The position numbers were made by a program, and so were the translations under genes. This document shows positions 59,612 through 59,752 of a stretch of DNA of 64,000 nt, in pieces. The DNA is from Escherichia phage LinBro. The stretch lies in sequence record OR896830.1. The stretch is one strand, 5' to 3'. The notes beneath the pieces were generated by a model. That model saw nothing but the letters and a program-made list of their open reading frames with translations, searched no databases and was not told the origin of the DNA. The number at the start of each line of letters is the position of its first letter. Position 1 is the first letter of the stretch.

Positions 59612-59752
59612 TATCTTTGTAGATAAGTTATTAAGCTTACCTGTGAGTATGCGACCACAAAGGGTGAAAGGGTAAATTCTAGATTTAAACCCAAAAAGTC
59701 ACATCGCTACAGACCTTAAGCAAGTCTGGGTAGCTTATCTACAAAGATAATT
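59612..59752. repeat. 19-bp perfect inverted repeat flanking ~100 bp
   Basis: AATTATCTTTGTAGATAAG at 59614-59632 and exact reverse complement at 59733-59751. Confidence 0.6.

What the first reader, a model, noticed from the sequence alone, without database searches (positions are those of the whole stretch)
59612..59752. Perfect 19-bp inverted repeat flanking about 100 bp after element D
AATTATCTTTGTAGATAAG at 59614-59632 and its exact reverse complement at 59733-59751 form a long stem around a segment containing a CAGACC...GTCTGG hairpin. Could be a structured RNA, a miniature inverted-repeat element or an endonuclease target.
Basis: seen in the sequence. Interest (0 to 1): 0.5.

Follow-up and report, generated by a model that had tools for sequence, protein, structure and literature searches.

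The report
Conserved long-stem RNA in phage tRNA operon
The inverted repeat is the closing stem of a conserved, previously undescribed ~145-nt structured RNA that sits just before tRNA-Lys in Felix O1-like phages, next to a Ro60-like protein gene and four Y-RNA-like genes, and it probably belongs to that RNA-protein module.

Summary
A perfect 19-bp inverted repeat lies at 59609-59627 / 59734-59752 and extends to a 24-bp helix when G·U pairs are allowed. It is the longest such repeat in the window.

The window is a Felixounavirus. The repeat lies on the + strand inside a 26-tRNA operon, 1 nt after "element D" and 4 nt before tRNA-Lys(UUU).

The element, called E here (59608-59756), is single-copy. 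It is kept at the same position in all nine Ounavirinae-like lineage representatives examined. The closing helix is always 22-30 bp but differs in sequence. There are 13 pairs with compensatory changes, and 21 G·U against 1 A·C, so the + strand RNA is what is selected. It is not a MITE, terminator, tRNA or endonuclease site, and it matches no Rfam family.

The ORF 1.1 kb upstream (DUF2828) models as a Ro60/TROVE ring. Elements A-D are Y-RNA-like, and D is a permuted tRNA mimic like YrlA. All four carry a stem followed by a YCAGCAA motif, which recurs next to DUF2828 genes in distant phages. E's 3' hairpin shows a similar motif (CUUAAGCAA) in its loop.

Best reading: E is a fifth, atypical Y-like RNA, with RNase P and possibly RNase III defining its ends. 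Expression and binding are untested.

The parts
59608..59756 (+). Element E: the whole structured RNA (about 145-149 nt). It starts 1 nt after element D and ends at the RNase P site of tRNA-Lys.
   Evidence: MFE -46.3 kcal/mol, z -5.65. Covariance models find it at this extent. Homologues in L114-L118 and L120 lie at the syntenic site.
59609..59632 (+). 5' strand of the closing helix. The first 19 nt (59609-59627) are the perfect repeat arm.
59729..59752 (+). 3' strand of the closing helix. The last 19 nt (59734-59752) are the perfect repeat arm.
59637..59667 (+). Hairpin 1. It is predicted only, and this half of the interior differs almost completely between the two sequence types.
59670..59692 (+). 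Central hairpin with AUUCUAGAUU, invariant in the 15 aligned Felixounavirus/Mooglevirus variants. The palindrome UCUAGA lies at 59678-59683.
   Evidence: helix 2. The L106 variant keeps pairing through G·U.
59693..59709 (+). Single-stranded linker that includes CACAUCGCUA. The consensus across lineages is roughly CACAWCNCUA.
   Evidence: Read off the sequences.
59710..59728 (+). 3' hairpin CAGAC-CUUAAGCAA-GUCUG, directly abutting the closing helix. The 9-nt loop (59715-59723) ends in GCAA.
   Evidence: The stem covaries: CAGAC/GUCUG, CAAACC/GGUUUG, CAGUC/GACUG, AAAGUC/GACUUU, AGAGAC/GUCUCU, CUGUUC/GAACGG. The loop stays C-Y-U-W-W-G-C-A-A in 6 of 8 lineages.
59757..59832 (+). tRNA-Lys(UUU), always the next gene after E (0-10 nt). 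Its 5' maturation would create E's 3' end.
59476..59607 (+). Element D, a Y-like RNA with a permuted tRNA-like domain. Order: closing stem, UUUACAGCAA motif, T-arm 59532-59548, closed acceptor-like hairpin 59549-59566, D-arm 59568-59584.
   Evidence: Compensatory changes in the acceptor-like hairpin are visible.
59389..59462 (+). Element C, a Y-like hairpin RNA (stem AGACCAA/UUGGUCU followed by AUACAGCAA).
59001..59061 (+). Element B, a Y-like hairpin RNA (stem AGACCGU/ACGGUCU followed by AUUCAGCAA).
58834..58906 (+). Element A, a Y-like hairpin RNA (stem AGACCAA/UUGGUCU followed by UUACAGCAA).
57084..58499 (+). Gene for a 471-aa Ro60-like protein (DUF2828 + DUF7788, a TROVE-like ring plus a vWA domain).
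   Evidence: Pfam and PHROG hits. AF2 model with pLDDT 89.4. The Foldseek top 10 are all Ro60/TROVE structures. tblastn reaches mycobacteriophage 'Ro-like RNA binding protein'.
58518..58638 (+). Two sigma-70-like promoters (58518-58546 and 58609-58638) facing the tRNA/ncRNA operon.

Best explanation
E is a stable, non-coding, structured RNA made from the + strand as part of the phage tRNA operon.

Shown: a 22-30-bp closing helix, a multibranch interior and a 3' hairpin are maintained by selection on the RNA. The element always sits immediately 5' of tRNA-Lys(UUU).

Inferred, step 1: RNase P cleavage at the tRNA-Lys 5' end creates E's 3' end. The unusually long, nearly perfect helix protects the RNA from exonucleases, and it may also be a host RNase III site that cuts E out of the polycistronic precursor.

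Inferred, step 2: the 3' hairpin (a short stem plus a loop ending in WGCAA) mimics the stem-plus-YCAGCAA module of the four upstream Y-like RNAs. That module is the presumed docking site for the phage Ro60-like protein encoded 1.1 kb upstream. On this reading E is a fifth, atypical Y-like RNA that recruits or gates the ring protein. The Ro60-like protein was reported to counter the Ppl defence system in the Felixounavirus Bas63.
For: RNA-level selection:
- In alignment A4, 99.6% of cells are paired and 13 pairs changed on both sides, against 0-2 such pairs and 20-50% pairing in the slid controls (this alignment was fitted to the model, so the pair counts lean towards the structure).
- RNAalifold run on the independent MAFFT alignment gave the same helix.
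- Closing helices of 7 lineage representatives hold 142 Watson-Crick pairs, 21 G·U and 1 A·C.
- Both stem polymorphisms within type 1 are transitions that leave G·U on the + strand.

Conservation:
- 236 phage records match E.
- Model hits in L114 (52 bits), L120 (38 bits) and L115-L118 (27-30 bits) are the top hit in each locus and all lie directly 5' of tRNA-Lys(UUU).

Transcription context:
- All 26 tRNAs and all three strong promoters are on the + strand, and there is no terminator at E.
- D, E and tRNA-Lys fold independently when folded together.

Ro60 link:
- The AF2 model of the upstream ORF matches Ro60/TROVE structures over its full length (E 5e-9 to 8e-7, TM 0.46-0.67).
- tblastn gives 29-33% identity (E 1e-58 to 1e-75) to mycobacteriophage 'Ro-like RNA binding protein'.
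- Preprint 10.1101/2024.10.10.617714 notes that Bas63 gp130 is Ro60-like, lies upstream of the tRNAs and counters Ppl.

Y-like family:
- Elements A-D and their homologues have covarying stems followed by YCAGCAA, and D has T-arm, closed acceptor and D-arm in YrlA order.
- In 75 distant DUF2828 loci there are 55 orphan T-arms on the gene strand and 0 on the other. 19 of the 55 sit in a 'stem + C[AU]GCA' frame (examples).

E to family link:
- E's hairpin loop is CUUAAGCAA, CUUUAGCAA, CCUUAGCAA or CCUAUGCAA, on a covarying stem.
- In L119 the long-stem element before tRNA-Lys carries UUCCGCAA directly after the 5' strand of its stem, as A-D do.
Against: - No transcript, processing or binding data exist for E.
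- The motif match is short (WGCAA). It lacks the C of CAGCAA and deviates in two lineages (L118 CUUGCACAA, L120 CUUUAGUAA).
- E does not carry the GNCGAAN0-1G motif or the tRNA-like domain that define bacterial YrlA RNAs (PMC4201824).
- A >20-bp uninterrupted helix is not typical of Y RNAs, and A-D alone could serve the Ro-like protein.
- E is confined to the Ounavirinae-like clade, whereas the protein and its Y-like RNAs are far more widespread.
- Other long stems occur next to tRNAs in this operon (the tRNA-Ser flanks, and the element before tRNA-Leu). That fits a general processing role just as well.
Confidence: 0.45

Rival explanations
1. E is only a processing and insulating module of the polycistronic tRNA precursor. 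The >=22-bp helix is a host RNase III site (or an exonuclease barrier) that separates the upstream Y-like RNAs from tRNA-Lys-Met-Ile. The interior has no function in trans.
For: The helix is kept at 22-30 bp (two helical turns) in every lineage, although 7-9 bp suffice to close A-D. The helix ends 0-10 nt from tRNA-Lys. The same operon has a 13-bp flank extension around tRNA-Ser (60540-60552 / 60641-60653) and another roughly 26-bp stem directly 5' of tRNA-Leu(UAG). From my own memory, not checked here: maturation of T4 species 1 RNA in its tRNA cluster involves RNase III.
Against: A pure cleavage site would not need about 100 nt of interior. Yet that interior keeps a covarying 3' hairpin with a conserved loop, a conserved linker and an invariant central hairpin across lineages. 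This rival is not exclusive of the main explanation.
Confidence: 0.25
2. E is a highly derived tRNA-like RNA, either a pseudo-tRNA or an oversized cloverleaf. The closing helix would be an extended acceptor stem, the central hairpin (loop UUCUAGA) an anticodon arm, and the 3' hairpin would stand in the T-arm position.
For: It has a four-way-junction layout, with the 3' hairpin abutting the closing helix just as a T-arm abuts the acceptor stem. The central 7-nt loop U-U-CUA-G-A fits the Y-U-NNN-R-N pattern. It lies in a tRNA array where tRNA-Ser also has flank pairing. T4 rnaC, a 139-nt RNA in a tRNA cluster, does carry a T-arm.
Against: ARAGORN does not call it. The Rfam tRNA model gives nothing at E <= 5 on either strand. 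It has no T-loop or D-loop sequence signatures. The interior is 96 nt, against about 60 in a tRNA. In L114 the CUAG loop sits in a different register, and L115-L118 carry AACGUU instead.
Confidence: 0.08
3. E is a DNA-level element: a miniature inverted-repeat transposable element, a homing-endonuclease or recombinase target, a protein-binding palindrome, or a transcription terminator.
For: It has a perfect 19-bp terminal inverted repeat. HNH endonuclease genes are present in the tRNA arrays of some relatives.
Against: There is a single copy, at a fixed position. There is no target-site duplication, no empty site, and no copy in E. coli genomes. 21 G·U against 1 A·C in the helices means pairing is preserved on one strand only, which a DNA palindrome does not require. 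There is no G+C-rich stem or U-run. The HNH insertions lie elsewhere.
Confidence: 0.02

Closest known systems
Bacterial and phage Y RNAs bound by Ro60/Rsr (YrlA, YrlB; Yrl1/Yrl2 of Thermus phage phiLo) - PMC4201824, PMC12135203
   Same: It is encoded within about 1 kb of, and on the same strand as, a Ro60-fold protein gene, together with tRNA-mimicking Y-like RNAs. Its 5' and 3' ends pair in a terminal stem that closes a structured interior. It carries a short conserved purine-rich motif next to a stem.
   Different: It has no GNCGAAN0-1G or CGAA motif and no T-arm or D-arm. The terminal helix is 22-30 bp and almost uninterrupted. The putative docking motif (WGCAA) lies in a terminal loop near the 3' strand, not after the 5' strand. 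The partner protein belongs to the DUF2828 branch rather than the Pfam TROVE family. Binding is untested.
Phage T4 small stable RNAs rnaC (species 1, 139 nt) and rnaD (species 2, 119 nt) in the T4 tRNA cluster
   Same: Each is a roughly 120-140-nt non-coding RNA of unknown function. Each is co-oriented with and adjacent to phage tRNA genes, so presumably matured by the tRNA-processing machinery.
   Different: The E covariance model finds nothing at rnaC or rnaD. rnaC has a T-arm and only a short terminal pairing, and rnaD folds weakly (z -0.83). T4 has no adjacent Ro60-like gene in that region.
RNase III processing stems that flank stable RNAs (rRNA operon stems, phage T7 R sites) - from general knowledge
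   Same: Two or more helical turns of nearly perfect dsRNA, formed by sequences flanking an RNA that must be cut out of a polycistronic precursor.
   Different: Cleavage was not tested. The enclosed RNA carries its own conserved motifs.

Membership tests
Y RNA / YrlA-type Ro60 partner | Encoded close to, and on the same strand as, a Ro60 orthologue | tested here: met
   E starts 1.1 kb downstream of ORF 57084-58499, on the same strand. The ORF models as a Ro60/TROVE ring and is homologous to mycobacteriophage Ro-like proteins.
Y RNA / YrlA-type Ro60 partner | Terminal stem formed by the 5' and 3' ends | tested here: met
   A 24-bp closing helix with covariation.
Y RNA / YrlA-type Ro60 partner | GNCGAAN0-1G (CGAA) motif near the 5' end (PMC4201824, PMC12135203) | tested here: not met
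   No CGAA occurs in 59608-59756 (sequence). Only a WGCAA loop motif is present, related to the YCAGCAA of elements A-D.
Y RNA / YrlA-type Ro60 partner | tRNA-like domain (T-arm, D-arm, closed acceptor stem) | tested here: not met
   Absent from E. Present in the neighbouring element D.
Y RNA / YrlA-type Ro60 partner | Physical association with the Ro60 protein, and Ro-dependent accumulation | not testable with these tools
   Needs immunoprecipitation or EMSA.
Y RNA / YrlA-type Ro60 partner | Match to any curated RNA family model in Rfam 15 (the scan covers all 4227 families) | tested here: not met
   Nothing overlaps E at E <= 5.
tRNA | Cloverleaf with T-loop and D-loop signatures, detected by tRNA finders | tested here: not met
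   No ARAGORN call. No RF00005 hit at E <= 5.
Miniature inverted-repeat transposable element | Multiple dispersed copies | tested here: not met
   One copy in the window. One significant match per related genome (L114, L120), with no second same-strand match below E about 0.1. None in E. coli genomes.
Miniature inverted-repeat transposable element | Target-site duplication and presence/absence polymorphism | tested here: not met
   The flanks CTGGT and TAATG are unrelated. The element is present at the same site in every locus examined.
RNase III substrate | At least about 20-22 bp of near-perfect dsRNA | tested here: met
   22-30 bp in all ten representatives.
RNase III substrate | Cleavage by RNase III in vivo or in vitro | not testable with these tools
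   Needs an rnc mutant host or purified enzyme.
Intrinsic terminator | G+C-rich hairpin followed by a U-run | tested here: not met
   No terminator-like site at E. The stem is A+U-rich and tRNAs follow it.
T4 rnaC / rnaD | Sequence or structure homology | tested here: not met
   Model R2, filters off, on the T4 tRNA region: no match at rnaC or rnaD.

The most novel reading that the evidence does not exclude
E is a new class of phage regulatory RNA. It would be a Ro60-ring scaffold cut out of the tRNA precursor by RNase III and RNase P. It might self-associate through the palindromic apical loop (UCUAGA, ACUAGU or AACGUU in different lineages). Together with the four Y-like RNAs it would arm the phage Ro60-like protein against host defences that act on RNA or tRNA. 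Its fixed coupling to tRNA-Lys(UUU), the classic anticodon-nuclease target, would then be functional rather than accidental.
Probability: 0.15. Interest if true: 0.8.

Novelty: new variant of a known kind. Interest (0 to 1): 0.6.

Why it matters
Felix O1-like phages are widely used for Salmonella and E. coli typing and therapy. Their Ro60-like protein was recently reported to counter a bacterial defence system, but the RNA partners were only guessed at ("some tRNA genes are possibly Y RNAs").

This locus supplies concrete candidates: four Y-like RNAs sharing a stem + YCAGCAA signature, and E, a distinct long-stem RNA carrying a related motif. The same signature recurs beside DUF2828 Ro-like genes in very different phages. 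It therefore gives a testable recognition code for a large, uncharacterised branch of Ro60 proteins.

E itself is a compact, strongly covarying RNA suited to structure probing. It could show how non-tRNA RNAs are matured from phage tRNA operons.

Tried and rejected
1. Mimic of the tRNA-Lys anticodon stem-loop. In the window E's hairpin stem CAGAC/GUCUG resembles the tRNA-Lys anticodon stem. Across lineages the two stems do not co-vary: L114 has tRNA GCAGA/UCUGA against E CAGUC/GACUG, and L115 and L116 also differ. Rejected.

2. MITE, endonuclease target, or DNA palindrome. Rejected.

3. Intrinsic terminator or promoter at E. None found.

4. tRNA or a known RNA family. No ARAGORN call and no Rfam hit.

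5. Homology to T4 rnaC/rnaD. None.

6. Protein coding. There is no ORF of 40 aa or more in E on either strand. The annotated 33-aa 'hypothetical protein' over the left arm has no PHROG. The two sequence types differ by indels that are not multiples of three.

7. E-like long helix before tRNA-Lys(UUU) in distant DUF2828 phages. Absent; the best helices are 8-11 bp.

8. Kissing-loop dimerisation through the palindromic loop. Six-nt palindromes are expected about 1.5 times per 100 nt by chance. Only the recurrence at the hairpin apex is suggestive, so this is kept as an unexplained observation.

9. Literature search for the T4 species 1 RNA / RNase III precedent. Nothing usable in the library, so that precedent rests on memory.

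10. The second-round alignment A5 mixed reverse-strand matches and missed L116 and L118. It was not used for statistics.

Full report
**Observation**

The 19-mer AATTATCTTTGTAGATAAG lies at 59609-59627 and its exact reverse complement at 59734-59752. As RNA the pairing extends to 24 bp (59609-59632 / 59729-59752) through G·U pairs. It is the longest perfect inverted repeat with a gap of 200 nt or less in the 64-kb window, while 40 Markov randomisations reached only 11-14 bp.

**Context**

The window is a Felixounavirus, 98% identical to Shigella phage JK55 and many Felix O1-like phages. The repeat lies inside an operon of 26 tRNA genes, all on the + strand (58665-63571). The operon is preceded by two sigma-70-like promoters, and there is no promoter or terminator at the element.

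The element, called E here (59608-59756), starts 1 nt after "element D" and ends 4 nt before tRNA-Lys(UUU). D, E and tRNA-Lys fold as independent domains when folded together.

**Conservation and strand**

- 236 phage records match E.
- E occurs in two sequence types that differ almost completely in the 5' half of the interior but share the helix, a central hairpin and the 3' hairpin.
- RNAalifold on a MAFFT alignment of 15 distinct variants recovers the helix, with compensatory pairs: CG/UA at two positions, CG/GC at one, and AU/GC in the inner hairpin.
- A covariance model built from these finds homologues in more distant Ounavirinae-like contigs: L114 at 52 bits and L120 at 38 bits. A second-round model finds L117, L115, L118 and L116 at 27-30 bits. 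Each is the best hit in its locus, on the + strand, directly 5' of tRNA-Lys(UUU).
- On the model-fitted alignment 99.6% of cells pair and 13 pairs changed on both sides. Slid controls gave 0-2 such pairs and 20-50% pairing. The fit to the model biases this somewhat.
- Independent single-sequence folds give a 22-30-bp closing helix in all ten representatives, ending 0-10 nt from tRNA-Lys.
- Across seven lineages the helices hold 142 Watson-Crick pairs, 21 G·U and 1 A·C. Pairing is therefore preserved on the + strand RNA only.
- The element is single-copy, absent from E. coli genomes, absent from more distant phages that carry the same protein family, and matches no Rfam family.

**Anatomy in the window**

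| Part | Coordinates |
|---|---|
| Closing helix, 24 bp | 59609-59632 / 59729-59752 |
| Variable hairpin 1 | 59637-59667 |
| Central hairpin with invariant AUUCUAGAUU | 59670-59692 |
| Linker containing CACAUCGCUA | 59693-59709 |
| 3' hairpin | 59710-59728 |

The 3' hairpin has a 9-nt loop, CUUAAGCAA, and stacks directly on the closing helix. Across lineages its stem covaries while the loop stays C-Y-U-W-W-G-C-A-A in six of eight lineages.

**Neighbourhood**

The ORF at 57084-58499 (DUF2828 + DUF7788, PHROG 850 'RNA-binding protein') gives a confident AF2 model (pLDDT 89.4). Its ten best PDB matches are all Ro60/TROVE rings, including the Thermus phage phiLo Ro60. By tblastn it is homologous to mycobacteriophage 'Ro-like RNA binding protein'. 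A preprint on the Felixounavirus Bas63 reports that the equivalent gp130 is Ro60-like and counters the Ppl defence. Its authors only speculate that some downstream 'tRNAs' are Y RNAs.

The four elements A-D (58834-58906, 59001-59061, 59389-59462, 59476-59607) each consist of a 7-9-bp stem, a YCAGCAA motif right after the 5' strand, and a variable module. D contains a T-arm, a closed acceptor-like hairpin and a D-arm, in the permuted order described for YrlA, with compensatory changes (PMC4201824).

The same architecture and motif recur in related contigs with different stems. They also recur beside DUF2828 genes in distant phages. There, 55 orphan T-arms lie on the gene strand and none on the other, and 19 of them sit in a 'stem + C[AU]GCA' frame.

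I therefore regard A-D as the Y-like RNAs of this Ro60 branch. This is inference from architecture and co-occurrence; binding is not shown.

**How E most likely works**

Shown: E is a selected + strand RNA structure, fixed in position before tRNA-Lys(UUU).

Inferred:
1. RNase P cleavage of tRNA-Lys makes E's 3' end.
2. The helix of 22 bp or more, much longer than needed to close a domain, acts as an exonuclease barrier and possibly as an RNase III site.
3. The 3' hairpin is a minimal copy of the A-D docking module (stem + WGCAA), so E is a fifth, atypical partner of the Ro60-like ring. In L119 the long-stem element before tRNA-Lys carries UUCCGCAA directly after its 5' strand, which bridges the two designs.

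I put about 0.45 on this combined reading. I put about 0.9 on the narrower claim that E is a functional structured RNA on the + strand.

**Rivals**

- A pure processing or insulator stem (0.25). This is favoured by other long stems next to tRNAs in the operon: the tRNA-Ser flanks, and a roughly 26-bp stem before tRNA-Leu(UAG). It is weakened by the conserved interior motifs.
- A derived tRNA-like RNA (0.08). This is suggested by the cloverleaf-like layout and the U-U-CUA-G-A loop, but E fails the tRNA detectors and has no T-loop or D-loop signatures.
- DNA-level readings: MITE, endonuclease site, terminator (0.02). These are contradicted by copy number, synteny, the G·U asymmetry and the absence of a U-run.

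**Comparison with known systems**

E works most like a Y RNA. [quoted passage not shown] It is analogous to, but not homologous with, T4 rnaC and rnaD. No paper in the searchable library describes it.

**Verdict**

This is a real, conserved, previously undescribed structured RNA. It is best classed as a new variant within the Ro60/Y-RNA kind, and is moderately to highly interesting because it makes the RNA side of a phage Ro60 anti-defence module testable.

Noticed in passing
window 60006-60116 (promoter 60006-60034; tag-like ORF 60080-60116): A strong promoter (TTGACA-17-TATAGT) inside the tRNA array is followed by GCA AAC GAC AAT GTT TTT CTG GCA GVA-like codons that read ANDNVFLAVA**, close to the E. 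coli tmRNA tag ANDENYALAA. Rfam gives sub-threshold tmRNA hits: tmRNA_permuted 59933-60116 at 30.8 bits, and tmRNA 60048-60237 at 15.9 bits. ARAGORN calls no tmRNA. This may be a phage tmRNA-like element between tRNA-Ile and tRNA-Arg.
   Followed up: partly
window 58834-58906, 59001-59061, 59389-59462, 59476-59607: Four Y-RNA-like genes (A-D) are interspersed with the tRNAs. Each is a stem followed by YCAGCAA, and D has a permuted tRNA-like domain (YrlA-like). The same signature recurs beside DUF2828 Ro60-like genes in distant phages. I found no description of them in the searchable literature.
   Followed up: yes
window 60806-60897: A second long-stem element (about 26-29-bp imperfect closing stem, about 90 nt) lies directly 5' of tRNA-Leu(UAG). 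Its outer stem UCUUUUUAGA/UCUAAAAAGA resembles E's UCUUUGUAGA/UCUACAAAGA, and UUACAGCUU follows its 5' strand. It is conserved in 253 phage records, and in L114 it has a 16-bp perfect stem.
   Followed up: partly
window 60540-60552 / 60641-60653 around tRNA-Ser(UGA) 60553-60642: A 13-nt inverted repeat (AAGTCTTATTAGG / CCTAATAAGATTT) extends the tRNA-Ser acceptor stem to about 20 bp, and the gene lacks an encoded CCA. The same arrangement occurs in Yersinia phage P778 (L115 11505-11621).
   Followed up: partly
window 60459-60539: An 81-nt tRNA-like sequence has a T-arm, a 3' CCA and a CUCCAAA loop (anticodon CCA, Trp, which is the only amino acid missing from the 26 called tRNAs). ARAGORN does not call it, and it scores only 23 bits as tRNA-Sec in Rfam. 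It is conserved in L114-L116. It is probably an unusual tRNA-Trp.
   Followed up: partly
window 59678-59683; L114, L115, L116, L118 central hairpins: The apex of E's central hairpin is a 6-nt palindrome in several lineages, with different sequences: UCUAGA, ACUAGU, AACGUU. This could allow loop-loop dimerisation, or it could be chance.
   Followed up: partly
relatives: L005 1780-2178 (phage bumzen); L114 10032-10424: HNH homing-endonuclease genes are inserted in the tRNA array between tRNA-Ile and tRNA-Ser in some relatives, at the position where the window has tRNA-Arg(UCU).
   Followed up: no
phage database records GU169904.1 (Staphylococcus phage SA1) and one 'Campylobacter' record: Records named for unrelated hosts contain this Felix O1-like tRNA region at about 97% identity. 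This suggests chimeric or contaminated deposits.
   Followed up: no
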